This document shows positions 1-19,319 of a stretch of 19,319 bases of DNA, piece after piece. The stretch lies in IMG/VR virus record IMGVR_UViG_3300045988_171920; one strand, written 5' to 3'. This DNA is from a virus. A program made the translations under genes and the position numbers. The notes under the pieces are model-generated. The model made no database searches and was not told the origin of the DNA. It saw only the letters and a program-made list of their open reading frames with translations. Numbering within the stretch: the stretch's first letter is position 1; the number at the start of each line of letters is the position of its first letter.

Positions 1-76
1 TCCCTGTTTACAAAACTTCCCCACATGGTTACAATAACTACATGTTATTTAATCTAAACTAGGGCAGAAGATTTTC
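1..76. repeat. Left inverted terminal repeat (76 bp)
   Basis: nt 1-76 equal the reverse complement of 19244-19319 with one mismatch (nt 56 vs nt 19264). Identity stops at nt 77. Confidence 0.95.
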
Positions 77-102: not shown

Positions 103-133
103 TTTTTACATAAATATTCATCACATAGTATTG
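103..133 (+). promoter_or_regulatory. Subterminal conserved block TTTTTAC-N17-AGTATTG, inward-facing (promoter-like or origin-associated)
   Basis: ATAATTTTTACAT (99-111) and AGTATT (127-132) recur at the same spacing at the right end (19188-19222, - strand), although the surrounding sequence outside the ITR has diverged. Confidence 0.3.
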
Positions 134-151
134 TTAACTATATGCTTATAT

Positions 152-182
152 TGTTCACATTTTTTCTATCATATCGTATGCA
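152..182 (+). promoter_or_regulatory. Candidate promoter TGTTCAC-N16-CGTATGCAATAATT
   Basis: TGTTCAC at 152-158, 16-nt spacer, CGTAT at 175-179. Not embedded in a hairpin. Lies just upstream of the first micro-ORF RBS. Confidence 0.35.
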
Positions 183-201
183 ATAATTAAGAGGTGATTG
201 A

Positions 202-282
202 GTGGGAACATTATTATTTATTTTTATTGTTATTTATATTGTTATTCTTATTATTATGTTAGCAATATATGCATTATCATAA
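202..282 (+). CDS. Hydrophobic micro-protein, 26 aa (GTG start): GTLLFIFIVIYIVILIIMLAIYALS
   Basis: Hand-translated; below the ORF-track cutoff. SD AAGAGGTG lies 5 nt before the GTG. The peptide is almost entirely hydrophobic (one TM helix). Paralogous to 298-366. Confidence 0.35.
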   Translation: MGTLLFIFIVIYIVILIIMLAIYALS

Positions 283-297
283 TTAAGAGGTGATTAA

Positions 298-366
298 ATG
301 GAGATATTATTTTTTATTTTTATTGTTATTCTTTTTATAATTGTTTACCAATTCATCTATAAATAG
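298..366 (+). CDS. Hydrophobic micro-protein, 22 aa: MEILFFIFIVILFIIVYQFIYK
   Basis: Hand-translated. Same SD (AAGAGGTG) and same 5-nt spacing as 202-282. The 5' region is a direct repeat of the first unit (183-234 vs 279-330). Confidence 0.35.
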   Translation: MEILFFIFIVILFIIVYQFIYK

Positions 367-372
367 TATAAT
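342..372 (+). promoter_or_regulatory. Candidate promoter TGTTTAC-N16-AGTATAATATAA (also readable as TTTACC-N17-TATAAT)
   Basis: TATAAT at 367-372 and TTTACC at 344-349 with a 17-nt spacer. AGTATAATATAA is shared with the site at 585-596. Confidence 0.4.
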
Positions 373-431
373 ATAATTGAGCATAGTTCTATCCGACACT
401 TTTTCATTTTTTCTCCTTTCATTTATTTATA

Positions 432-461
432 GCGGAATTAAACCACCATTTTAATTACCGC
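432..461 (+). other. Stem-loop: 11 bp stem with one bulge, 7-nt loop
   Basis: GCGGAATTAAA (432-442) pairs with TTTAATT-A-CCGC (450-461). It sits in a 270-nt non-coding stretch. Confidence 0.5.
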
Positions 462-491
462 ACATTTATTAATCACATATTTTATTCCTGT

Positions 492-508
492 GGGCGATTT
501 ATTCGCCC
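492..508 (+). other. GC-rich stem-loop GGGCGA/TCGCCC (possible weak terminator)
   Basis: 6-bp GC-rich stem with a 5-nt loop. It is followed by TAAAATTT, so there is no clean U-tract. Confidence 0.4.
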
Positions 509-560
509 TAAAATTTACATATATTATACTGGTATTTACTCTTAAATATTTTAAAAATAG

Positions 561-592
561 TGTATACATTAACTCTCAAATATCAGTATAAT
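561..592 (+). promoter_or_regulatory. Candidate promoter for the SSB operon, TGTATAC-N17-AGTATAATATAA
   Basis: TATAAT at 587-592 and TATACA at 563-568 (18-nt spacer), about 45 nt upstream of the SSB start codon. Confidence 0.45.
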
Positions 593-1301: not shown

Positions 1302-1332
1302 GGTAGACTTTATTGTCTACCTTTTATTTTTT
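1302..1332 (+). terminator. Rho-independent terminator
   Basis: GGTAGAC (1302-1308) pairs with GTCTACC (1315-1321), followed by TTTTATTTTTT. Confidence 0.8.
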
Positions 1333-1346
1333 CAATCGTATATAAT
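1314..1346 (+). promoter_or_regulatory. Candidate late promoter TGTCTAC-N16-CGTATATAATAATT
   Basis: TGTCTAC at 1314-1320, 16-nt spacer, CGTAT at 1337-1341, TATAAT at 1341-1346. Same architecture as the sites at 152, 2882 and 7261. Confidence 0.4.
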
Positions 1347-1510
1347 AATTGTAGTTTATAATACGTTGAATAATAATGCTACAAATACGTACCAAGGTGA
1401 AGAGCCTGTATTTGTAGGGTCGAAAGTGGTATTTCCGTTGTTAACATTTATAAATTGCATTTTTATTGAGTACCCAACGCACTACAAGGTGCATATTTGG
1501 GTATTCTATT
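1347..1510 (+). ncRNA. Highly structured leader or candidate non-coding RNA upstream of the scaffold gene
   Basis: A perfect 10-bp helix (1379-1388/1408-1417). A bipartite 10+4 bp hairpin (1468-1477/1497-1506 and 1479-1482/1489-1492). The region is locally more GC-rich by eye. No convincing ORF. Confidence 0.35.
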
Positions 1511-1538
1511 AAGAATTAATAAATTAAAAGGAGGAATA

Positions 1539-2878: not shown

Positions 2879-2902
2879 GGAGGTGTACAAACCTCCTTTT
2901 TT
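2879..2902 (+). terminator. Rho-independent terminator
   Basis: GGAGGT (2879-2884) pairs with ACCTCC (2891-2896), followed by TTTTTT. Confidence 0.8.
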
Positions 2903-2912
2903 GTCGTATATG
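2882..2912 (+). promoter_or_regulatory. Candidate late promoter GGTGTAC-N16-CGTATATG
   Basis: GTGTAC at 2883-2888, 16-nt spacer, CGTAT at 2905-2909. It overlaps the terminator hairpin, so the spacing could reflect terminator geometry. Confidence 0.25.
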
Positions 2913-6637: not shown

Positions 6638-7256
6638 AAATACAATAGAAATAAATCAATTAGTAAATGATTTAGATTTTAATCTATTTGATTTTGAATA
6701 CAATCTTTACGATAATGAATTAAAGGAAGTTTTCGAGAAAAAATTTATTGACCATTTCTATTTTTATGAAATTGGATTAACTCCTATTGCTAGATTTAAA
6801 AAGGCGTTGCAAATTAAATTAAATGATATTTACCCATATTATAAGCAACTTTATCAAACTGAATTAAGATGTAATGACATTGATTTTATGCTAAATAAAG
6901 ATTTAAAAGAATCTTATACAAGGGAATTAACAGGAAATAGTTCAGTAAATCAAAGTTCAACAAGTACAAGTAACGATACTAGTTTAAATATTAATAATGA
7001 TACTCCACAAAATAAAATTGATGATTTAGACAATTATATGACTAGTGCAAGTAAGAATACAGACAACTCAACAATGAGCAGTAATGGTACAAATAGTGCT
7101 GAAAACAATTCAACAGAAATATATAGTTTAATTTCTCAAGGTAATATTGGCGTAACTTCTTCCGCTGAATTATTAGAAAAGTGGAGAAATGTATTAATAA
7201 ATATTGACCAATTGATTTTTGAAGAATGCAACGATTTATTTATGTTAATTTACTAG
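6630..7256 (+). CDS. Lower collar / head-tail adaptor protein (phi29 gp11 position)
   Basis: Directly follows the portal gene and overlaps it by 8 nt. SD GAGGAGGG. 208 aa with an N/S/T-rich middle. Called mainly by synteny. Confidence 0.6.
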   Translation: MSKNTIEINQLVNDLDFNLFDFEYNLYDNELKEVFEKKFIDHFYFYEIGLTPIARFKKALQIKLNDIYPYYKQLYQTELRCNDIDFMLNKDLKESYTRELTGNSSVNQSSTSTSNDTSLNINNDTPQNKIDDLDNYMTSASKNTDNSTMSSNGTNSAENNSTEIYSLISQGNIGVTSSAELLEKWRNVLINIDQLIFEECNDLFMLIY

Positions 7257-7281
7257 GGCTTGTTTACTCAAGTCCTTTTTT
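7256..7281 (+). terminator. Rho-independent terminator
   Basis: GGGCTTG (7256-7262) pairs with CAAGTCC (7269-7275) with one G-U pair, followed by TTTTTT. Confidence 0.7.
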
Positions 7282-7292
7282 GTCGTTAGTAA
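7261..7292 (+). promoter_or_regulatory. Candidate late promoter TGTTTAC-N16-CGTTAGTAATAATT
   Basis: TGTTTAC at 7261-7267 (in the terminator loop), 16-nt spacer, CGT at 7284-7286, then AATAATT directly before the fibre RBS. Confidence 0.3.
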
Positions 7293-7312: not shown

Positions 7313-9331
7313 ATGAGTATTGATAAGATAAGAAATATTGGGCTTGATAAATTAGTTACACAAGTTTACGATTTTGATAGTTTAACAACAGATGAATTAA
7401 TGTGCAAATTTGCTCAAAAAATAAATATCATTATTGAACACTTTAAATATTTAGATGACAGATGTGATAATAGTGAAAAAAATCTAGAGTTAAAATTACA
7501 ATATTTATTAGGTCAAGGTTTAGAGGAACAAGTTGCAAAAAGATTATTAGAATTAATAAATAAGGGAACTATCGGGAAATTAATTAATGAAACTTTATTA
7601 AAAGATATTAACGATAAAGTTGATAATTTTAAAGTTGAAGTTAATGAAGAATTTGAACAAAAATTGGATAAAAATGGAATAGTTACAATGGCTAACATGG
7701 GGCAAGATGTTAAAGAAGCTTTTACAGGTGGAGCAGTTGCAGTTGTTGGTAGAAATAGTGTTTTAACTGAAAATATAGTTGATAACCAAGTAAATCAATA
7801 TAAAGTGGATTTTATAAATGAAGATAATAACTTATTAAGAAACGAGGGTCTTTTATTTAATAAAAATATTGATGTTAATTCGGGATTGACAATTGAAAGT
7901 AATGGATATGTAACTACCGATTTTATAAGCGTAGATTCAAGTACATTATATACGTTTAATTTTTATAAACTTGCACCTAATAATCCTGGGGCAACAGTTA
8001 TTTATTATAATTCTAATAAAACTATAATTTCAAATGAATTTGTAACTGAATTTAGTTTTACTACGTCAGAAAATTGTAAATATATTAGAATTAGTTTTCC
8101 TAACTACGATATTATAAAAATTAATAATACATTTTTATCAAAAGATACTACAAAAACTTCTCCTAAACTAAAAAATGAATATTTAGATGAAAGTTTTTTG
8201 AGTAATAATTTTGAAAATAATTTTGCTAAAAAAAATATAGAGCCTTTAAACTGTACTTTTTTCGATAAGGTTATTAATATAAAAGATATTGCACAGTTTG
8301 AAAAAAATAAAACTGTAAACCCTACTACTGGTGGTTTTGAAAGCTTTAGTGGTAGAACTATTTTAGGCTTTTATGATGTAAAATATGTTGACGCAATTAA
8401 TGTTAATACTGATACTACTATGTTTCTATATGATGAAAATAAAAATATATTAAGTTCTGTAAATGGTGGAAATATAATTAAAAGTGGAACAGTTATTCCT
8501 ATAACTCATAATACAAGTAATAATGATACTAGGTTTATTGTTATAGTTGCTCTTACTGTAGCCGATAGTGTTTTAAACGAAATAGTAATAAATCCATCAA
8601 TGTATATCTATGATGGCGTTGATAGATATTATTTAAAAGATAGTGTGATAAAAAGTTTAAGTAATTCTTCATTTTATAAAAATAAAAAAATAACTTGTTT
8701 TGGTGATAGTATAACTGCTCAAAATCAATGGCAACCTTGGGTGGCACAATACTTTAATTGTACAATGGTAAACAAAGGTGTTGGGGGTACAACTGTTTTC
8801 AATAATGGTAATAAAGAAGTTATAGAGGGAGAATTACGAGATAGTTGGATGTGTTCTGATGATAGAATTAATTTAATACCTACTGATTCAGATGTTATAC
8901 TTGTATTTGGAGGTCATAACGATTTTGGTTATAATAATTTAGAAATGGGTGTTTTAGGTGATGGAAACTTAATAGATAGCACATTTAAAAGTGCATATAG
9001 TTTAATGCTTAAAAAATTAGTAAATAAATTCCCTAACGCTCTTATTATAACTATGACTCCAGTTGGCGGTAGAACTGAAACAGAGAAAGGTAATAGTGAC
9101 AAACAATACTATATAAGAGATTTATGCATGACAGATTTTGCAAATGCCGTAAAAGAAGTTAGTGCATATTACGGTATTCCTTGTATAGACATAAACGGTG
9201 AAAGTCGTATTAGTACACTAAATCACGATACTTATATAGCTGATGTTATTCACGCTAATTCAGATGGTGGAAAATTAATAGCAAACGTCGTAATAAATGG
9301 AATGAAAAGATTTGAGCCAATAATATTTTAA
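7313..9331 (+). CDS. Tail fibre / appendage protein with C-terminal SGNH (GDSL) hydrolase domain
   Basis: Start at ATG 7313, 9 nt after GGAGG at 7299-7303. The N-terminus is a coiled fibre-shoulder type region (MANMGQDVKEAFTGGAVAVVG). The C-terminus carries the SGNH blocks CFGDSITA (GDS at 8702-8710), GVGGTT, GGHNDF and DVIHANSDG. Confidence 0.8.
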   Translation: MSIDKIRNIGLDKLVTQVYDFDSLTTDELMCKFAQKINIIIEHFKYLDDRCDNSEKNLELKLQYLLGQGLEEQVAKRLLELINKGTIGKLINETLLKDINDKVDNFKVEVNEEFEQKLDKNGIVTMANMGQDVKEAFTGGAVAVVGRNSVLTENIVDNQVNQYKVDFINEDNNLLRNEGLLFNKNIDVNSGLTIESNGYVTTDFISVDSSTLYTFNFYKLAPNNPGATVIYYNSNKTIISNEFVTEFSFTTSENCKYIRISFPNYDIIKINNTFLSKDTTKTSPKLKNEYLDESFLSNNFENNFAKKNIEPLNCTFFDKVINIKDIAQFEKNKTVNPTTGGFESFSGRTILGFYDVKYVDAINVNTDTTMFLYDENKNILSSVNGGNIIKSGTVIPITHNTSNNDTRFIVIVALTVADSVLNEIVINPSMYIYDGVDRYYLKDSVIKSLSNSSFYKNKKITCFGDSITAQNQWQPWVAQYFNCTMVNKGVGGTTVFNNGNKEVIEGELRDSWMCSDDRINLIPTDSDVILVFGGHNDFGYNNLEMGVLGDGNLIDSTFKSAYSLMLKKLVNKFPNALIITMTPVGGRTETEKGNSDKQYYIRDLCMTDFANAVKEVSAYYGIPCIDINGESRISTLNHDTYIADVIHANSDGGKLIANVVINGMKRFEPIIF

Positions 9332-9360
9332 TTCACAATTGATTTATATTGTTCGTAAAT
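9331..9360 (+). promoter_or_regulatory. Weak candidate promoter AATTCAC-N17-CGTAAAT
   Basis: TTCAC at 9332-9336, 17-nt spacer, CGTA at 9354-9357, upstream of the 9413 gene and the lysis cassette. Poorest match to the motif family. Confidence 0.2.
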
Positions 9361-10785: not shown

Positions 10786-11808
10786 ATGAAAGGAAGTGTT
10801 TTGTTCGTGGCTTGGTATAATTATGATAGAATTAATAGTTATAATGCAACTTTAAATTTTATACTAACAAACAGAGGTTTTGGTAAAACATTTGGTGCTA
10901 AGTGCAATGTAATAAAAAAGTTTTTAAAGAAAGGTGAACAATTTGTTTATGTAAGAAGATACAAAACAGAACTTAATGACATTCACAAATTTTTTGATTC
11001 ACCCGATTTAAGAAAAAAGTTTAAAACTCATACGTTTGAGGTAAAAGGAAAAACATTCTTTATAGATGGAAAAATTGCAGGTTATGCAATTGCTCTTTCC
11101 ACTTCCCAAAAATTAAAGTCAGTCGATTATCCTTTTGTAACTACAATTATCTTTGACGAGTTTATAGTTGATAAAGGTTGTATAAGATATCTAACAAATG
11201 AAGTTGACGTGTTTTTAGATTTATATGAAACAATAGCGAGAAAAAGAAATAATGTTAAAGCATATTTATTAGCTAATAATGTTTCTATAGTAAATCCATA
11301 CTTCACTTACTTTGATGTAACGCCCAAAAAGACAGAGCGATTTACAATTGCACGTGATGGTGAATTAGTTATTGAAATGTGTACAGATACTGTATTTATT
11401 AATGAAAAACTAGAAACAAAATTCGGTAAACTTATTAAAGGGACAAAATATGCAGACTATTCAATTTATAATAATTCATTGAGAGATAGTGAAGTGTTTA
11501 TAGAAAAAAGACCAAAGCGAAATACTTCTCCTGTTATGAGTATAGTTTTTAATGGTGAAAGGGCTATGATATGGCTTGACTATAAAACAGGTATATTTTA
11601 CTGTGATGACAAATACATGAAAACTTGTAATGAATATGTATTAAGTTGTGAAGACCATAATCCAAATACATTGTTAAATGCAAGTGGAATTAATCTTAAT
11701 ATGTTAAAACAATTAATTTCATATTTCCAAGTTGGAAGAGTAAGATTTTCAGACCAAAATATTAAACATTTAATGTATGATATATTTAGAAGTTTAGGGG
11801 TAAAATAA
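10786..11808 (+). CDS. DNA encapsidation (packaging) ATPase, phi29 gp16-like
   Basis: LNFILTNRGFGKTF (Walker A), GEQFVYVRRYK, FFIDGKIAGYAI, TIIFDEF (Walker B), NVSIVNPYF and SEVFIEKR align closely with remembered gp16. ATG 10786 has no SD. The true start may be TTG 10801 or GTG 10807, behind AAAGGAAG. Confidence 0.93.
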   Translation: MKGSVLFVAWYNYDRINSYNATLNFILTNRGFGKTFGAKCNVIKKFLKKGEQFVYVRRYKTELNDIHKFFDSPDLRKKFKTHTFEVKGKTFFIDGKIAGYAIALSTSQKLKSVDYPFVTTIIFDEFIVDKGCIRYLTNEVDVFLDLYETIARKRNNVKAYLLANNVSIVNPYFTYFDVTPKKTERFTIARDGELVIEMCTDTVFINEKLETKFGKLIKGTKYADYSIYNNSLRDSEVFIEKRPKRNTSPVMSIVFNGERAMIWLDYKTGIFYCDDKYMKTCNEYVLSCEDHNPNTLLNASGINLNMLKQLISYFQVGRVRFSDQNIKHLMYDIFRSLGVK

Positions 11809-11811
11809 AAA

Positions 11812-11828
11812 GGAGGGTATTACCCTCC
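11812..11828. terminator. Bidirectional terminator at the convergence of the two arms
   Basis: GGAGGGT (11812-11818) pairs with ACCCTCC (11822-11828). The A-run upstream on + gives a U-tract for - strand transcripts. It lies between the stops at 11808 (+) and 11834 (-). Confidence 0.75.
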
Positions 11829-11833
11829 AATTA

Positions 11834-12397
11834 TTATATTATTTCTCTTATTTCTTTTTCGTGTTCTCTTAATCTCTTCCTTATCCTTGAAAGAATTGTT
11901 TTTGTTCCATTATATTTTGCTCCAAATTTATTACTTATTTCTTCAATGGTATAACCTTGGCAATACATTTTGAAATATTCTTTGTGTCTTTCGTTTTTAA
12001 TAAATTCGCAAACTTTATCAATTGTTTCGTTTATATCTTCGTATTCATCTTCAGATTGAATAACGTTGTGTAAACTCATTTCATTTTCATTTTTATAACC
12101 ATCAATTTCTTGATCTAAAAATACTAAATTATCATAAACTTTTCTTTTTTCTCTTCTTTCAACTTTTAAAACATCATAAACCCCATTTTTTATTACTTTT
12201 GCTATGAATGTATTTAACCCTGCGATTTCTTCATCATATTGATTTATAGCAAATGCGACTTTTGCTTCACATATTTGAAGTACATCTTCAAATTCTACTC
12301 TATCATGATATTTTACTAAAATACTATTATAATATTTATAAGTCATACCCTTTAAATATCCATCACCATATTGATTAATATAATCTTCATATTTCAT
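11834..12397 (-). CDS. Sigma-70 family RNA polymerase sigma factor (small, ECF/TcdR-like size)
   Basis: 187 aa. A region-2-like segment (EFEDVLQICEAKVAFAINQYDE...NTFIAKVIKNGVYDVLKVERREKR) and a region-4 HTH (KEYFKMYCQGYTIEEISNKFGAKYNGTKTILSRIRKRLRE). It is the last gene of the replication operon. Confidence 0.75.
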   Translation of the reverse strand: MKYEDYINQYGDGYLKGMTYKYYNSILVKYHDRVEFEDVLQICEAKVAFAINQYDEEIAGLNTFIAKVIKNGVYDVLKVERREKRKVYDNLVFLDQEIDGYKNENEMSLHNVIQSEDEYEDINETIDKVCEFIKNERHKEYFKMYCQGYTIEEISNKFGAKYNGTKTILSRIRKRLREHEKEIREII

Positions 12398-12411: not shown

Positions 12412-14541
12412 CTAAAATAAATAATAACTATTTGAAATTTTATAAGGTTGCTCTTGTATAAGTGTACCACCTTTTATAATCTTTGATTTCTTAGATTTAA
12501 TTAACCCTACTATTTTCTTTGTGCATTCTTTGTCATAATAATAATACACATCATTTTCTTTTGTGAATAATTTCATCTTTTTTAATTCCTTACTTGAATG
12601 TGGGCAATTATCAAACACATCAATATCATCAACTTGTTTCATTATACTGTCTGTTAAACCACAACACTTAATTTCCCATTTATGAGTTTCTGCATTCTTT
12701 TCTGCATAACGTTTACTACCAATATATTTAAAATCTTCAAAGCATAACTCGTTATCCCAGTAACCATATATTTTGGTACCAATGTTAACTCCCTTAACTT
12801 CTTCAAGTGTTCCATATAAATGTAAACTATCTGTATCGCAATATAAAAATCTTTCATAATTTGCATTAATTGCTTGAACTAAATATTGTTTTGCATAACT
12901 TGTAATAAATGTTGCCATAGGTAAATAAATATTATCTGAAACATATTCATCATGTAAATGATTAATTGTAAATATTCCGTCTTTATTTTCAAACTCTGTA
13001 ATTTCATTTGAGCCACTCATGCCGAATTTACCGTACAGTCCATTTTGTCGAAGTTTTGCAATAGCCCTATTTGCTCCTGTACTATTCTTTTTTACTTCAC
13101 TCCAAAAATCTATATAATTTTTAAATAAATCATGAGTACCAGTAAATGCCATATGACCTCCAAGTTCATAAGAGTAAACATTATAACATTCAAATAATAA
13201 CTCTAGCAATGGATTACATAATCTAAAAGTTAATGTTACTTTTTCACCGTCTTTTACATTATTCTTTAAAATTTCACGACCATTAAAGTTTGGATTGTCC
13301 TTAACTTGTAAGAATGCCATCTTATTTTCTTTTACTTCAAAGTCATAAATAGTAATTTCTTGAATATAAAGTGGAAAACATTTCTTATAACTTTCATTCA
13401 TTTTGCACCACGGAATTTCCTTAAAGTTTGCTTGTCCGTATGGTAGCAATCTATCACTCATTATATAAGGATAAAGTGAATTAACATCTAAAACTATACC
13501 ATTATGATTTTCACATTTTTTAAATTTTTCTACATTTTCAAAACATACTGTGCTTAGTCCCCCGTAATAACTATGTCTTTGCCACGCGTCAGTAAAGTAA
13601 GATTGTTTTGGAAATAAGCATTCAAAAATTATTTGCTTCTTTAATGATGGTTTATTGGTTTGAAAAAATTTTGTCCTCATTAAACCATTGTCTACATAAT
13701 CATATAAATCTTGATTTTTAAACATATTTTGTTTTAAAGTGTAATCCTCAAGAACTGTTTCTTTATAATCTTCCAATGATTGTCCACTATTTGTTAATTT
13801 AGTATAAATCACATGCTTTCCATTAATATCAAGTCCATCAATTTTTAACATTTTTACTAAATAACTTAATCCGTAAACATCGTTATAAATATAACTTAAT
13901 TCTTCTTTAGATAATAAATCATCAATGCTTCTTTCCTTTTCATAATCTAGCCCGTCTTTTGGTAAATGTAAATTAAGAAAATCAGCACAACATTTTTGTA
14001 AACTAAATGGGGCAATTTTAAAAGTATCATAAAAATTAATTGTTACATCATCACCATGTAAAGTTAACTTATAAAACACTCCATCTTTCATTACTAAATT
14101 ATATTCAAAAGGTTTTAGTTTTGTTTTATTCTTAACAGTAAATTTTAGTTTCTCTTTTTTCTTATTGTAAAAATCATAACATTGTCTTTCATAATATTCG
14201 TCAACTCTTTGTTTCGCATTATCTTGTTCTGTAAACCATAAAATAAATGGTTTAATATCATATAAAGCATTATGAGCAAATAAATTAATTGTTTTCTTTT
14301 TAATAGATAATAAATCATTCATAAAACTATCTACTGTTCTATAATGATAACAAATATCTGTATTGTTATCACATGACATTAATGCAATAGAATAAGTTAA
14401 CATTTCATTCTTTTCTTTTAAATAACATGCTTCTATATCAAAAGCAAAATTTTGTATATTATCATAATCGGGAATAGTCCTATAAGAATAATAATTGTCT
14501 AAATTCTCTGTTATATTTTTTAACCTCACATTTAAATCCAT
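12412..14541 (-). CDS. Protein-primed family-B DNA polymerase
   Basis: Exo I FDIEA, Exo II NALYDIKP, Exo III YIYNDVYG, motif A DVNSLYPY, motif B KLRQNGLYGKFG, motif C YCDTDS, KxY (SKRY). Start moved to ATG 14541, 6 nt after AGAGGTG. The track starts at GTG 14550. Confidence 0.95.
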   Translation of the reverse strand: MDLNVRLKNITENLDNYYSYRTIPDYDNIQNFAFDIEACYLKEKNEMLTYSIALMSCDNNTDICYHYRTVDSFMNDLLSIKKKTINLFAHNALYDIKPFILWFTEQDNAKQRVDEYYERQCYDFYNKKKEKLKFTVKNKTKLKPFEYNLVMKDGVFYKLTLHGDDVTINFYDTFKIAPFSLQKCCADFLNLHLPKDGLDYEKERSIDDLLSKEELSYIYNDVYGLSYLVKMLKIDGLDINGKHVIYTKLTNSGQSLEDYKETVLEDYTLKQNMFKNQDLYDYVDNGLMRTKFFQTNKPSLKKQIIFECLFPKQSYFTDAWQRHSYYGGLSTVCFENVEKFKKCENHNGIVLDVNSLYPYIMSDRLLPYGQANFKEIPWCKMNESYKKCFPLYIQEITIYDFEVKENKMAFLQVKDNPNFNGREILKNNVKDGEKVTLTFRLCNPLLELLFECYNVYSYELGGHMAFTGTHDLFKNYIDFWSEVKKNSTGANRAIAKLRQNGLYGKFGMSGSNEITEFENKDGIFTINHLHDEYVSDNIYLPMATFITSYAKQYLVQAINANYERFLYCDTDSLHLYGTLEEVKGVNIGTKIYGYWDNELCFEDFKYIGSKRYAEKNAETHKWEIKCCGLTDSIMKQVDDIDVFDNCPHSSKELKKMKLFTKENDVYYYYDKECTKKIVGLIKSKKSKIIKGGTLIQEQPYKISNSYYLF

Positions 14542-14552
14542 ATATTTCACCT

Positions 14553-15353
14553 CTATTTAAAACTATCTAATTGCCTATATTCGTTAATAGTCCTGTCTAT
14601 TCTTGCATAAGAATTTTCTGAAGCTTTATCTATCTCGCCCTCACCAATATCTAAATATTTATCTCTCAAATTATTAAGCTCTCCTTTTATAAATAATTCT
14701 TTTTGCAGTGGTGAAAGTGTGTGCCATTGTTTCCATATAGCCTGTCTTTGATAACTTTCCATATTTTGAACAAAATCTAAACTCATAAAATCAGCAAACC
14801 ATTTATTTTGCATAGTATCATCATTTAATTTGTCATAAACTGCTTGAAGTGTTATCTTCTTATAATCATTCTTTAATTTATTTAACATTGCCAATTTTCT
14901 TTCATCATCAGAAATGACTAAATCACCTATTTTCTTTAATGCAACACCATCAATCCTAAAACTTTTATTCCTCCTAGATGGAAAAAATACATCTTTACCA
15001 GTTAAATAATCAATTTGTTGCTCTGTTAGTCCCATAGCTTTTAATGCATTTATTGATGATTCAACTTGTCTATTATATCTTTTTATATAATTATTTAGTC
15101 TTACATCAACTGATAATTGTTTTTTAGGTTTACTATTTAAGTTATCTTTTTTAATTTGTGATTGTAGCCCACGTTCAATTTTATTAATTTGTGTTTTTAA
15201 TTGCTTATCACTAAGTTGTCCATTTTTTAAATATGTTGGAATTTTATAACCTAATACTTGTAACTTATTAACTAAATATTTCACCTTTTGTTTAGTAGAC
15301 TTCTTTTCCCAATTAACTCTTTTTAATCCGGATAATTGCCTTTTTGCATTCAT
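14553..15353 (-). CDS. Terminal protein (replication primer), putative
   Basis: Immediately upstream of, and coupled to, the DNA polymerase gene, as in phi29 genes 3 and 2. ~266 aa, lysine-rich. The genome has ITRs. Start at ATG 15353, 6 nt after GGAGGG. No sequence motif recognised. Confidence 0.65.
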   Translation of the reverse strand: MNAKRQLSGLKRVNWEKKSTKQKVKYLVNKLQVLGYKIPTYLKNGQLSDKQLKTQINKIERGLQSQIKKDNLNSKPKKQLSVDVRLNNYIKRYNRQVESSINALKAMGLTEQQIDYLTGKDVFFPSRRNKSFRIDGVALKKIGDLVISDDERKLAMLNKLKNDYKKITLQAVYDKLNDDTMQNKWFADFMSLDFVQNMESYQRQAIWKQWHTLSPLQKELFIKGELNNLRDKYLDIGEGEIDKASENSYARIDRTINEYRQLDSFK

Positions 15354-15381
15354 GATATACCCTCCCATTATTCATATATTT

Positions 15382-15420
15382 ATAATATATGTATTAGGGT
15401 GAAAATGTTCACCCTTATTA
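15382..15420 (-). repeat. 39-bp hairpin-containing direct repeat, copy 1
   Basis: ATAATATATGTATTAGGGTGAAAATGTTCACCCTTATTA, with an 8-bp stem (15396-15403/15408-15415). Near-identical to 15814-15852. Confidence 0.85.
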
Positions 15421-15778: not shown

Positions 15779-15813
15779 AATTTCTCAATCCTTTCAATTT
15801 TATTTATATATTA

Positions 15814-15852
15814 ATAATATATGTATTAAGGGTAAAATGTTTACCCTTATTA
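15814..15852 (-). repeat. 39-bp hairpin-containing direct repeat, copy 2
   Basis: ATAATATATGTATTAAGGGTAAAATGTTTACCCTTATTA, with a 10-bp stem (15827-15836/15840-15849). Differences from copy 1 preserve the pairing. Confidence 0.85.
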
Positions 15853-16065: not shown

Positions 16066-16146
16066 TTTATCATTCTCCTTTTTATTTTATTTACGGCAAT
16101 TCTTGTCGAATCCTGTATTACTATTTATCTCCCTCTCTATGATTTA

Positions 16147-16175
16147 ATTATATAATATTTGTTCAACTTTTTCAA
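16147..16175 (-). promoter_or_regulatory. Sigma-A-type promoter TTGAAA-N17-TATAAT (internal early/middle promoter)
   Basis: On the - strand: TTGAAA (16175-16170), 17-nt spacer, TATAAT (16152-16147). The flanks are homologous to the right-end promoter at 19091-19119. Confidence 0.7.
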
Positions 16176-16186
16176 TAGTTTGTAAA

Positions 16187-16196
16187 CAAATATTTG
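16187..16196. promoter_or_regulatory. Perfect 10-bp palindrome CAAATATTTG, 11 nt upstream of the -35 box (operator-like)
   Basis: Identical palindrome at identical spacing upstream of the second early promoter (19131-19140). Confidence 0.45.
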
Positions 16197-16211
16197 AAAG
16201 TTTTGCTCGAC

Positions 16212-19032: not shown

Positions 19033-19090
19033 AATTCCCATTCTCCTTTTCGACATTCTTTTTATTATCTATTTCCCTTTCCATGATTTA

Positions 19091-19119
19091 ATTATATAAC
19101 ATTTGGAAAGAAAATGCAA
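19091..19119 (-). promoter_or_regulatory. Sigma-A-type early promoter TTGCAT-N17-TATAAT at the right end
   Basis: On the - strand: TTGCAT (19119-19114), 17-nt spacer, TATAAT (19096-19091), about 35 nt upstream of the first early gene's ORF. Confidence 0.7.
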
Positions 19120-19130
19120 TAGTTTTTATA

Positions 19131-19140
19131 CAAATATTTG
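19131..19140. promoter_or_regulatory. Perfect 10-bp palindrome CAAATATTTG, 11 nt upstream of the -35 box (operator-like)
   Basis: Same sequence and spacing as 16187-16196. It is embedded in the shared block CTTTCAAATATTTGT. Confidence 0.45.
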
Positions 19141-19187
19141 AAAGAAATTATAAAAATATATGATGAAATATTAAATGATAAAATACC

Positions 19188-19218
19188 TAATACTAGTTAA
19201 TACAATTACATGTAAAAA
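19188..19218 (-). promoter_or_regulatory. Subterminal conserved block TTTTTAC-N17-AGTATTA, inward-facing (right-end copy)
   Basis: Read on the - strand: TTTTTAC (19218-19212), 17 nt spacer, AGTATTA (19194-19188). Mirrors block 103-133. Confidence 0.3.
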
Positions 19219-19243: not shown

Positions 19244-19319
19244 GAAAATCTTCTGCCCTAGTTAAGATTAAATAACATGTAGTTATTGTAACCATGTGGG
19301 GAAGTTTTGTAAACAGGGA
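19244..19319. repeat. Right inverted terminal repeat (76 bp)
   Basis: Reverse complement of nt 1-76. The window ends exactly at the repeat boundary. Confidence 0.95.

What the first reader, a model, noticed from the sequence alone, without database searches (positions are those of the whole stretch)
11834..12397. Phage-encoded sigma factor plus a promoter-like motif family seen mainly on the late strand
- The last gene of the leftward replication operon encodes a 187-aa sigma-70-family protein, similar in size to ECF or clostridial TcdR/UviA-type sigmas. phi29 itself uses the non-sigma regulator p4.
- Reading the + strand by eye, I find a repeated architecture T(G/T)TnnAC, then a 16-17 nt spacer, then (C/A)GTAT:
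  - 152-179: TGTTCAC-N16-CGTATGCAATAATT
  - 342-372: TGTTTAC-N16-AGTATAAT
  - 561-592: TGTATAC-N17-AGTATAAT
  - 1314-1346: TGTCTAC-N16-CGTATATAATAATT
  - 2882-2912: GGTGTAC-N16-CGTATATG
  - 7261-7292: TGTTTAC-N16-CGTTAGTAATAATT
  - 9331-9360: a weaker AATTCAC-N17-CGTAAAT
  - the subterminal blocks at 103-133 (+) and 19188-19218 (-, the only early-strand member): TTTTTAC-N17-AGTATT
- CGT looks scarce in this AT-rich DNA, so its fixed spacing stands out.
- The two early-strand promoters are instead canonical TTGnnn-N17-TATAAT.
- This suggests an early (host sigma-A) to late (phage sigma) cascade.
- As I recall, CGT-type -10 boxes are typical of ECF sigmas and a TTTACA -35 box of TcdR-family sigmas. 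I have not verified either point.
- Caveats: three sites overlap terminator hairpins, whose geometry could fix the spacing. Several sites can also be read as weak sigma-A promoters (TnTACn-N17-TATAnn).
Basis: partly seen in the sequence, partly recalled or inferred. Interest (0 to 1): 0.75.

Follow-up and report, generated by a model that had tools for sequence, protein, structure and literature searches.

The report
Sigma factor in phi29-like phage
A tiny phi29-like phage really does carry its own RNA-polymerase sigma factor. It also has four matching promoters at the heads of its non-early genes, so it probably times its late genes with its own sigma rather than with a phi29-style activator, but that link is inferred, not shown.

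Summary
**Verdict:** the sigma gene is confirmed, the motif family is about half right, and the link between them is plausible but unproven.

**Sigma gene.** The 187-aa ORF (11834-12397, minus strand) is a two-domain sigma-70-family protein of ECF type. It sits last in the terminal protein - DNA polymerase - sigma operon. A sigma occupies the same slot in 10 close relatives, in a sister clade, and in more distant phi29-like contigs, two of which carry two sigmas in tandem.

**Motif sites.**
- Four sites form a real, conserved family: 151-184, 341-372, 560-592 and 1313-1346. The pattern is TTGTnnAC, 16-17 nt, then (C/A)GTATAAT.
- All four lie in the left 1.35 kb. They head the units for two tiny peptides, an ncRNA, SSB, and a structured pRNA-like RNA plus the whole late operon.
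- Sites 2882 and 7261 are intrinsic terminators. The CGT at 9331 is not conserved. The subterminal blocks score as background.
- CGT is not scarce in this genome.

**Link to the sigma.**
- The sister clade has the same family with a uniformly shifted -10 (CATACAAT), while its host-type early promoter stays TATAAT.
- In every genome where the upstream region is held, the sigma gene sits behind a host-type promoter.
- This fits an early-to-late sigma cascade with ECF-like promoters (AAC, T-tract, CGTA).
- However, two of the four sites are also good host sigma-A promoters.
- TcdR-family membership is not supported.

The parts
11834..12397 (-). Phage sigma factor, 187 aa. Sigma2 domain about residues 1-88, flexible linker 89-120, sigma4 domain 121-187. 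Last gene of the terminal protein - DNA polymerase - sigma operon.
   Evidence: TIGR02937 scores 58.1 bits, above the 42.9 cut-off. Pfam hits. The AlphaFold model has pLDDT 87.7 and two helical domains. The listed Foldseek PDB matches (the best 50) are all sigma factors. It is 83-95% conserved in the 10 close relatives.
11812..11828 (.). Bidirectional terminator hairpin between the convergent packaging-ATPase and sigma genes.
   Evidence: GGAGGGTAATACCCTCC followed by a T-run on the minus strand.
19074..19143 (-). Early promoter module 1. TTGCAT-N17-TATAAT at 19119-19091, with conserved upstream and initial-transcribed flanks. Host sigma-A type.
   Evidence: A nearly identical module sits at the left end of sister-clade genome L014.
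16130..16199 (-). Early promoter module 2. TTGAAA-N17-TATAAT at 16175-16147. A paralogue of module 1, lying downstream of the terminator at 16239-16217.
   Evidence: 11 of 12 consensus positions. Conserved in 8 genomes.
151..184 (+). P152: TTGTTCAC-A-TTTTTT...-CGTATGCAAT, upstream of two tiny hydrophobic ORFs (202-282 and 298-366).
   Evidence: Held-out weight-matrix score 22.1, rank 4 genome-wide, reached in 1 of 300 shuffles. The homologue in c151872 reads TTGTTTAC-N16-CTTATAAT.
341..372 (+). P342: TTGTTTACC-N-(A/C)GTATAAT, driving a non-coding stretch at about 376-510.
   Evidence: Both boxes are invariant and the spacer is variable in sequence and length across 8 genomes.
560..592 (+). P561: GTGTATAC-N17-AGTATAAT, upstream of SSB (640-1011) and orf94.
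   Evidence: Promoter footprint across 10 genomes. SSB assignment from phrog_44.
1313..1346 (+). P1314: TTGTCTACC-TTTTATTTTTT-CAAT-CGTATATAAT, the only conserved promoter for the late operon. Its -35 box is the 3' arm of terminator 1300-1323, and its T-tract is the terminator's U-run.
   Evidence: Conserved in 11 genomes, with the hairpin covarying. Top weight-matrix hit. The positional homologue in the sister clade is the top or second hit there.
1351..1517 (+). Structured non-coding RNA, a pRNA candidate, forming the 5' leader of the late transcript.
   Evidence: 62 consensus pairs: 9 with compensatory double changes, none broken. No Rfam match.
2879..2896 (+). Not a supported promoter.
   Evidence: Weight-matrix rank 178.
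7255..7276 (+). Promoter function unsupported.
   Evidence: The '-10' varies in relatives: CGTTAGTAAT, CGTTAGAAAT or CGTTGTATTA. Weight-matrix rank 10, which is within shuffle background.

Best explanation
The window is a complete 19.3-kb phi29-like, protein-primed podophage. I propose that it runs a two-step sigma cascade.

**Step 1.** Host sigma-A holoenzyme starts at two canonical promoters on the minus strand (19119-19091 and 16175-16147). It transcribes the small early genes, the terminal protein, the DNA polymerase and, last, a minimal two-domain ECF-like sigma.

**Step 2.** That sigma joins host core RNA polymerase and reads four promoters of the form TTGTnnAC(C/A), 16-17 nt, (C/A)GTATAAT at the left end of the plus strand. 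P152 drives two tiny membrane peptides. P342 drives an ncRNA. P561 drives SSB. P1314 drives a pRNA-like leader RNA plus the whole 10.5-kb late operon, within which internal terminators at 2879 and 7255 act only as partial stops.

**What is shown.** The protein is a sigma. The gene order is as described. The two promoter classes exist and are conserved. The terminators are there.

**What is inferred.** That the phage sigma, rather than sigma-A, reads the second class. P342 and P561 may have dual specificity, with basal sigma-A activity. P1314 and P152 lack the -7 T in the 17-nt register and are the best candidates for strict dependence on the phage sigma.
For: 1. **The protein is a sigma.**
2. 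**The family is real.** Conservation footprints show invariant boxes with variable spacers. Held-out P152 scores 22.1 against a background of at most 10, reached in 1 of 300 shuffles.
3. **There are few alternatives.** I found no other conserved promoter-like element upstream of the late genes. If the sigma acts on the phage at all, these four sites are the only non-canonical candidates.
4. **A sister clade shows the same pairing.** Clade L012-L018 has 61-64% capsid identity. All seven members whose locus holds the stretch after the polymerase gene carry a divergent sigma there (L011 does not reach that region).
   - The 20 sites I collected in L013-L018 carry a uniformly shifted consensus, TTAAC(A/C)-N16-C(A/G)TACAATA(T/A)AGTGTA, although TACAAT was part of the search pattern that picked them.
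   - The sigma-A-type early module of L014 is almost identical to the window's and keeps TATAAT.
   - A change shared by all the paralogous promoters I collected in a clade, alongside a diverged sigma, suggests a co-evolving trans factor.
5. **A natural experiment.**
   - In the window clade and in L014, the sigma operon lies behind a sigma-A-type promoter.
   - In L013, L016 and L017 the left-end promoter has become family-type. There a terminator plus a new TTGAAA-N17-TGgTAAAAT promoter sits directly before the terminal protein - polymerase - sigma genes.
6. **ECF-like promoter architecture.** AAC or nAC, then a T-tract one base after the -35, then a 16-nt spacer and CGTA. This matches tGAAACnTTTt...CGTA in PMC5758882.
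7. **The slot is conserved more widely.** A sigma directly after the polymerase recurs in more distant phi29-like contigs: L030, L038, and L033 and L031, which carry two tandem sigmas.
Against: - There are no transcription data.
- The -10 box is TATAAT or TACAAT, and the -35 box TTTACC or TTAACA lies at 17 nt. Host sigma-A could therefore use P342 and P561 (10 of 12 consensus positions) and the sister-clade promoters.
- Known phage sigmas usually read promoters unlike the host consensus, and ECF sigmas do not normally need TATAAT (my own knowledge, not checked here).
- In L013-type genomes a family-type promoter heads the left-hand small genes, which are 'early' genes elsewhere.
- P152 has only one homologue among the relatives, and that one reads CT instead of CG.
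- The -35 box of P1314 is a terminator arm and its T-tract is the terminator's U-run, so part of the resemblance to ECF promoters could be a by-product.
- The co-variation rests on two clades only.
Confidence: 0.55

Rival explanations
1. All six promoters are read by host sigma-A. The plus-strand family is a weaker class without the TTG of the -35 box, kept alike by duplication. The sigma then has other targets: host genes, only P1314, or promoters I did not recognise. The early-to-late switch would rely on something else, such as promoter strength, replication-dependent copy number, or an unidentified activator.
For: - P342 is TTTACC-N17-TATAAT and P561 is TATACA-N18-TATAAT. Each matches 10 of 12 consensus positions, as good as the early promoters.
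- The homologue of P152 in c151872 is a clean TTTACA-N17-TATAAT without CG.
- In L013-type genomes a family promoter drives the left small genes.
- SSB and a small RNA are early functions in phi29.
Against: - It leaves a conserved sigma, present in several clades and sometimes duplicated, without phage targets.
- It does not explain the invariant C at -14 or the clade-wide switch from TATAAT to TACAAT while sigma-A-type modules keep TATAAT.
- It does not explain why a new sigma-A-type promoter appears before the sigma operon exactly where the left-end promoter is family-type.
- P1314 and P152 lack the -7 T in the 17-nt register.
Confidence: 0.28
2. The promoter family is read by a host alternative sigma of the mother-cell sporulation type (sigma-K or sigma-E: AC ... 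CATA(T/C)AAT), or the phage sigma mimics that specificity. Phage late expression would then be tied to host sporulation.
For: - The sister-clade -10 box CATACAAT, with AC 16 nt upstream, fits 'AC' plus 'CATATAAT', the form described for C. difficile sigma-K promoters (PMC3789822).
- Sigma-E and sigma-K promoters in B. subtilis share the same -10 sequences (PMC517825).
- The window sigma has sub-threshold SigK model hits, 2.2e-7 and 7.9e-6.
Against: - The SigK hits appear in only 2 of 10 family members, whereas ECF-type models hit 8-10 of 10.
- The protein lacks a sigma3 domain.
- The window clade has CGTA or AGTA, not CATA.
- The host is unknown, so whether it sporulates is also unknown.
Confidence: 0.07
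3. The motif is an artefact of AT-rich intergenic DNA and of terminator geometry (hairpin, U-run, then the next ribosome-binding site).
For: - This is true for sites 2882 and 7261, which are terminators, for 9331, and for the AATAATT extension, which belongs to a repeated ribosome-binding-site context, ATAATTA(A/G)GAGGTG.
- The heptamer TGTTTAC is over-represented on both strands: 12 matches against 4.7 expected.
Against: For the four core sites, this is rejected by the conservation footprints, by the held-out score and by cross-clade recognition.
Confidence: 0.05

Closest known systems
B. subtilis ECF (group 4) sigma factors sigma-W, -X, -M and -V and their promoters (tGAAACnTTTt - N16/17 - CGTA, CGTC or CGAC; PMC5758882)
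   Same: - Two-domain sigma2-sigma4 protein of about 185 aa.
- ECF-type HMMs are the most consistent hits.
- The promoters have AC at the -35, a T-tract one base later, a 16-nt spacer and CGTA.
   Different: - There is no anti-sigma partner and no autoregulatory promoter. The gene is phage-borne and driven by sigma-A-type promoters.
- The -35 box is TnTAC or TTAAC rather than GAAAC.
- The -10 box is embedded in a full TATAAT or TACAAT hexamer.
- Identity to any cellular ECF sigma is low. Only 93 hits with E below 1e-3 were found among 1.84 billion representative proteins.
Phage-encoded sigma cascades: SPO1 gp28 and gp33/34, T4 gp55, and phiEco32 gp36, an ECF-like sigma in a podophage (PMC13401047 abstract for SPO1; the others from my own knowledge)
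   Same: The logic is the same. Host sigma-A makes the early transcripts, which include a phage sigma, and that sigma redirects host core RNA polymerase to later genes.
   Different: - Those phages are 77-170 kb (sizes from my own knowledge), and their promoters look nothing like the host consensus.
- This genome is 19 kb and protein-primed, and the candidate promoters keep a sigma-A-like -10 box.
phi29 early-to-late switch by activator p4 with p6 (PMC11476376)
   Same: - The same virion, replication and packaging gene set: terminal protein, family-B polymerase, connector, Gp16 ATPase and a pRNA-like RNA.
- Convergent early and late operons.
- The late promoter is poor for sigma-A on its own.
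   Different: - No p4 or p6 homologue was noticed, though I did not search for one. A sigma gene occupies the end of the replication operon instead.
- The pRNA candidate is the 5' leader of the late operon rather than an early transcript.
Clostridial group-5 sigmas TcdR, BotR, TetR and UviA (-35 TTTACA, -10 GTTATA, SRQ motif in region 4.2; PMC4031146)
   Same: - Similar size.
- A -35 box resembling TTTAC(C/A).
- Low-GC, Firmicute-like setting.
   Different: - No SRQ motif.
- The -10 box is GTATAAT or CATACAAT, not GTTATA.
- No family-specific model hit.
Mother-cell sporulation sigma-K and sigma-E promoters (AC or ATA ... CATA(C/T)A-T; PMC3789822, PMC517825)
   Same: The sister-clade consensus AC-N16-CATACAAT fits this pattern.
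   Different: - The protein is not a group-3 sigma because it has no sigma3 domain.
- SigK model hits are inconsistent across the family.

Membership tests
sigma-70 family | Region 2 and region 4 domains detectable by curated HMMs | tested here: met
   TIGR02937 scores 58.1 bits against a cut-off of 42.9, covering residues 20-178. Pfam r2 (20.3 against 24) and r4_2 (18.1 against 25.7) fall just below their cut-offs.
sigma-70 family | Sigma fold: a helical sigma2 bundle plus a sigma4 helix-turn-helix domain | tested here: met
   The AlphaFold model has pLDDT 87.7. The listed Foldseek PDB matches (best 50) are all sigma factors: SigH, M. tuberculosis sigma-H and sigma-L, RpoE and AlgU. TM-scores are low because the relative orientation of the two domains is free.
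sigma-70 family | Binds core RNA polymerase and directs promoter-specific initiation | not testable with these tools
   Needs in vitro transcription with host core enzyme.
ECF (group 4) sigma | Only sigma2 and sigma4; no regions 1.1 or 3 | tested here: met
   187 aa. Two confident domains (residues 1-88 and 121-187) are joined by a low-confidence linker.
ECF (group 4) sigma | Match to ECF-specific models | tested here: inconclusive
   Pfam Sigma70_ECF scores 22.0 against 21.1, which is borderline. ECF-type NCBIfam models (PG0214, SigZ, SigM, BldN) hit 8-10 of 10 family members, but all fall far below their cut-offs.
ECF (group 4) sigma | Cognate promoters with an AAC -35 box and a CGT -10 box, often with a T-tract after the -35 | tested here: inconclusive
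   Candidate promoters read nAC or AAC, N16, then C(G/A)TA, with a T-tract in P152, P1314 and the sister clade. That they are cognate is unproven. P342 and P561 read AGTA and lack the T-tract.
ECF (group 4) sigma | Co-encoded anti-sigma factor and positive autoregulation | tested here: not met
   The sigma is the last gene before a bidirectional terminator. The nearest upstream promoters are sigma-A type, and no family site scores 12 or more anywhere on the minus strand.
TcdR/UviA/BotR group 5 | SRQ motif in region 4.2 (PMC4031146) | tested here: not met
   Region 4.2 reads YNGTKTILSRIRKRLRE. It contains no SRQ. This was checked by inspection, not by alignment to TcdR sequences.
TcdR/UviA/BotR group 5 | Promoters with TTTACA at -35 and GTTATA at -10 | tested here: not met
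   The -35 box TTTACC or TATACA is close, but the -10 box is GTATAAT or CGTATA.
Phage early-to-late sigma cascade | Sigma gene transcribed from host-type early promoters | tested here: met
   Sequence-level evidence only. There are two canonical promoters upstream on the same strand and none of the other class. The same holds in sister-clade genomes.
Phage early-to-late sigma cascade | Late genes preceded by a distinct promoter class that depends on the phage sigma | tested here: inconclusive
   A distinct conserved class exists and heads the late operon. Dependence on the phage sigma was not tested.

The most novel reading that the evidence does not exclude
A whole lineage of uncultured phi29-like, protein-primed podophages of 17-25 kb has replaced the phi29 p4/p6 switch with its own minimal ECF-like sigma, and in some members with two tandem sigmas. 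That sigma would co-evolve with a hybrid promoter that overlays ECF features (AAC, T-tract, CGTA or CATA) on a sigma-A-like hexamer. The same promoter would launch a packaging-RNA-like leader fused to the late operon. If so, these would be among the smallest genomes known to run a sigma cascade.
Probability: 0.45. Interest if true: 0.65.

Novelty: new variant of a known kind. Interest (0 to 1): 0.5.

Why it matters
phi29 is the textbook model for transcriptional switching by an activator (p4) in a minimal phage. A sister lineage that solves the same problem with its own sigma would add a second regulatory design to this family. A 2024 review of phi29-like phages does not contain the word 'sigma' at all.

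The system is very small: one 187-aa sigma, four promoters and two host-type promoters. That makes it attractive in three ways.
- As an orthogonal expression part for low-GC Gram-positive bacteria.
- As a test case for sigma-promoter co-evolution, since the two clades carry different -10 boxes.
- For asking how an ECF-like sigma copes with a TATAAT-type -10 box.

The finding also shows that reading promoters by eye over-calls terminators as promoters.

Tried and rejected
- **Searches of known phages.**
  - Megablast of the whole window and tblastn of the sigma against 50,697 phage records found nothing.
  - The polymerase is only about 30% identical to those of C. perfringens podophages.
  - The protein in the equivalent slot of phage susfortuna (gp11) gave no NCBIfam match of any kind.
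- **Rfam.** An E-value scan of the window found nothing, so the pRNA candidate has no match.
- **PDB by sequence.** No meaningful hit.
- **First AlphaFold run.** With 10 near-identical sequences it failed, at pLDDT 40. A 60-sequence alignment fixed this.
- **Unbiased dyad enumeration on intergenic DNA.** It was swamped by the terminal repeats and by hairpins, so I abandoned it. Cross-clade and held-out weight matrices replaced it.
- **SigK-like identity of the protein.** Rejected, because the hits appear in only 2 of 10 family members.
- **Attempts to reach a third complete clade.**
  - The diverse alignment was too variable to search with.
  - P0059 found nothing and P0057 found one short contig.
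  - So the late promoter of that clade was not seen.
- **The TGTTTACA-N17-TACAAT in the terminal repeat (positions 5-35 at both ends).** Considered as a family member and rejected, because its -10 box is not conserved in c139350.
Full report
**What the window is.** The 19,319-bp window is a complete linear genome with 55-nt perfect inverted terminal repeats and 26% G+C.
- The plus strand carries SSB (640-1011), a scaffold-like gene, the major head protein (1830-2873), tail and lysin proteins, the upper collar (connector), the lower collar, an appendage protein, an amidase and the Gp16-type packaging ATPase (10786-11808).
- The minus strand carries about 15 small genes, then the terminal-protein gene (14553-15368), a family-B DNA polymerase (12412-14550) and the 187-aa ORF of the finding (11834-12397).
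- The genome has no DNA match among 50,697 deposited phages. Its polymerase is only about 30% identical to those of Clostridium perfringens podophages.

**The protein is a sigma factor.**
- NCBIfam TIGR02937 scores 58.1 bits, above the 42.9 cut-off, across residues 20-178. Pfam Sigma70_ECF is just above its cut-off. PHROG 1740 'sigma factor' gives 3.7e-11.
- With a diverse 60-sequence alignment, AlphaFold gives pLDDT 87.7. The model has two helical domains (residues 1-88 and 121-187) joined by a poorly predicted linker, with no sigma3 domain.
- The listed Foldseek matches in the PDB (the best 50) are all sigma factors: a B. subtilis SigH model first, then M. tuberculosis ECF sigma-H and sigma-L, RpoE and AlgU.
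- The family is isolated. Only 93 of 1.84 billion representative proteins reach E below 1e-3.
- ECF-type models are the most consistent sub-threshold hits across family members. SigK models hit only 2 of 10.
- Region 4.2 (GTKTILSRIRKRL) lacks the SRQ motif that marks the TcdR group (PMC4031146).

**The sigma slot is conserved.**
- Ten close relatives from IMG/VR (capsid 92-99% identical) have the sigma at 83-95% identity in the same place.
- A sister clade, L011-L018 (capsid 61-64% identical), has a different genome layout. Early genes, terminal protein, polymerase, sigma and late genes all lie on one strand.
- The seven members whose locus covers that stretch (L012-L018) encode a 229-aa protein directly after the polymerase. 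It is a diverged sigma: TIGR02937 1e-6, and hhalign probability 80.7% over 151 columns.
- More distant homologues (28-34% identity) also sit directly after the polymerase in phi29-like contigs (L030, L033, L038).
- In L033 and L031 a second sigma follows the first, scoring 54.8 and 45.9 bits on TIGR02937.

**The motif: what survives.**
- All nine sites exist as written. The pattern was post hoc, and CGT itself is not depleted (73 against 67).
- Alignments of the intergenic regions across up to 12 genomes show promoter-style footprints at three sites, with invariant boxes and variable spacers:
  - P342: TTGTTTACCAAT ... ATA(C)GTATAATATAATTGAGCAT
  - P561: AGTGTATAC ... AAATATCAGTATAATATAAATACAA
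  - P1314: TTGT(C/T)(T/C)ACC ... TCGTATATA(A/T)TAATTGTAG
- I trained a two-block weight matrix on those three sites.
  - It scores the untouched site P152 at 22.1. The next best position in the genome scores 10.0, and only 1 of 300 dinucleotide-shuffled genomes reaches 22.1.
  - The other sites rank 10 (7261), 46 (19218, minus strand), 94 (103), 110 (9331) and 178 (2882) of about 38,500 positions.
- Sites 2882 and 7261 are the loops and tails of intrinsic terminators after the capsid and lower-collar genes. Their shared tail TTTTTTGTCG also follows a minus-strand terminator at 16239-16217.
- The '-10' at 7261 and the CGT at 9331 are not conserved.

**What the four sites drive.**
- P152 precedes two tiny hydrophobic ORFs with strong ribosome-binding sites.
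- P342 precedes about 135 nt of non-coding sequence that ends in a GC hairpin.
- P561 precedes SSB.
- P1314 overlaps the terminator that closes the SSB unit. It is followed by a 167-nt structured RNA (1351-1517) with 62 consensus pairs, 9 of them with compensatory double changes and none broken. That RNA runs straight into the scaffold gene and the rest of the late operon.
- I found no other conserved promoter-like element in the 10.5-kb late region.
- So the label 'late strand' is inexact. In six relatives a sigma-A-type early module plus an early-gene homologue sits on the plus strand at the left end, upstream of the tiny ORFs and P342.

**Two promoter classes.** The minus-strand promoters are two copies of a 70-nt module: TTTCAAATATTTGT..AAACTATTG(C/A)A...N17...TATAATTAAATCAT(G/A)GA.AGGGA. 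They are canonical for sigma-A. Literature on clostridia describes TTGAAA with TATAAT as sigma-A-dependent (PMC4031146).

**Evidence linking the second class to the phage sigma (inference).**
1. The sister clade has the same family at the heads of up to five units per genome: the left small genes, the late operon, the lysis region, an ncRNA and SSB.
   - The 20 collected sites (18 distinct) give TTAAC(A/C)-N16-C(A/G)TACAATA(T/A)AGTGTA, with C at -14 nearly invariant. The TACAAT core was part of the search pattern; the flanking conservation was not.
   - The window-clade matrix picks the sister clade's late promoter as the top hit in L014 and L015 and as the second hit in L013.
   - A matrix trained only on the sister clade ranks P342 and P152 first and second in the window.
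2. Within sister-clade genome L014, the early module is almost identical to the window's and keeps TATAAT. The family promoters I collected in that clade read TACAAT. A shift confined to one promoter class, in parallel with a diverged sigma, is what a co-evolving trans factor predicts.
3. In every genome where the upstream region is held, the sigma operon lies behind a sigma-A-type promoter.
   - In L013, L016 and L017 the left-end promoter has become family-type.
   - There, a terminator plus a new TTGAAA-N17-TGgTAAAAT promoter stands directly before the terminal-protein gene.
   - L012, L014 and L015 lack that insert. L014, and probably L015, whose held left end matches L014 from about position 150 on, rely on the left-end sigma-A module. 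L012's held left end does not reach a promoter.
4. The architecture matches B. subtilis ECF promoters: tGAAACnTTTt, a T-tract next to the -35, then CGTA (PMC5758882).

**Evidence against.**
- P342 and P561 match 10 of 12 sigma-A consensus positions.
- The one homologue of P152 has CT in place of CG, followed by a perfect TATAAT.
- The T-tract and -35 box of P1314 double as terminator parts.
- Only two clades could be compared.
- The sister-clade consensus also fits the AC...CATATAAT pattern of C. difficile sigma-K promoters (PMC3789822). This shows how weak matching by resemblance is.
- No transcript data exist.

**Verdict.**
- The gene call is right, and a sigma has not been discussed for phi29-like phages. 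A 2024 review of the group never mentions the word, although JGI's automatic annotation does name the protein.
- The motif family is real for four of the nine sites.
- The cascade is the best-supported model (about 0.55). The main rival, that sigma-A reads everything, stands at about 0.28.
- The ECF comparison is apt for how the system works and only borderline for membership. The TcdR comparison fails.
- I rate this a new variant of a known kind (phage sigma cascades), of moderate interest.

Noticed in passing
window 1351-1517 (+): A 167-nt structured non-coding RNA between P1314 and the scaffold gene. It has 62 consensus pairs, 9 with compensatory double changes and none broken, in 10 distinct sequences. 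The 5' and 3' ends of its first domain pair with each other, and a second hairpin domain follows, much as in phi29 pRNA (from memory). It has no Rfam match. The motif GGTGAAGAGCC also occurs upstream of the scaffold gene in sister-clade L013. It is probably a new packaging-RNA family expressed as the leader of the late operon.
   Followed up: partly
window 376-510 (+): A second non-coding stretch after P342, ending in the hairpin GGGCGATTTATTCGCCC. Two helices show compensatory changes (4 pairs). Its function is unknown.
   Followed up: partly
window 202-282 and 298-366 (+): Two tandem tiny hydrophobic ORFs, VGTLLFIFIVIYIVILIIMLAIYALS and MEILFFIFIVILFIIVYQFIYK, each behind AAGAGGTGATT. Their number and their upstream promoter differ among relatives.
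   Followed up: partly
window 15373-15415 and about 15806-15847 (-); also L012, L014 and L015 upstream of the terminal-protein gene, and L038 2400-2450: A hairpin without a U-run, followed by (T/C)AATACATATA(T/A)TAT, directly before the ribosome-binding site of the terminal-protein gene. The window has a second copy one gene upstream. The hairpin covaries (GGGTG/CACCC against GGGAGTG/CGCTCCC). A similar hairpin-plus-tail element stands before the terminal-protein gene in three clades. It could be a processing or translational element, or a promoter that works without a -35 box. I cannot explain it.
   Followed up: partly
window 2896-2906, 7276-7286 (+) and 16217-16207 (-): Three terminators on both strands share the tail CC-TTTTTT-GTCG. 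Terminator loops in the late operons of several clades contain GT(G/T)TAC or TCAC 16-17 nt before an A/T-rich box (window 2882 and 7261, L033 9740-9825, L038 at about 9920 and 13040). The heptamer TGTTTAC is over-represented on both strands, with 12 matches against 4.7 expected and 0 of 200 shuffles reaching 12. Weak re-initiation promoters at these terminators cannot be excluded.
   Followed up: partly
L033 3060-4159; L031 583-1695: Related phi29-like contigs carry two tandem sigma genes after the polymerase. In L033 the second passes the TIGR02937 cut-off (54.8 bits) while the first scores 37.8, just below it; in L031 the second passes (45.9 bits) and the first scores 67.5. This hints at a three-stage cascade in that clade.
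   Followed up: partly
L013 6186-6305: About eight tandem copies of a 16-nt unit, TACGAGTATACT(C/T)ATT, immediately upstream of the ribosome-binding site of the scaffold gene in a sister-clade genome.
   Followed up: no
window versus L012-L018, and c124331, c144129, c141604, c161322, c152502 and c154083: Genome architecture is plastic. Between the two clades the late module is inverted relative to both end modules. In six close relatives the left end carries a sigma-A-type early module and an early-gene homologue on the plus strand, where the window has the subterminal block and P152.
   Followed up: partly
window 1-13 and 19307-19319: Relative c139350 has a further 15 nt (ATCTAATTAATACTT) outside the sequence that starts the window at both ends, so the window may lack its true termini. 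A TGTTTACA-N17-TACAAT promoter-like site lies inside the terminal repeat at 5-35 and at 19315-19285, but its -10 box is not conserved.
   Followed up: partly
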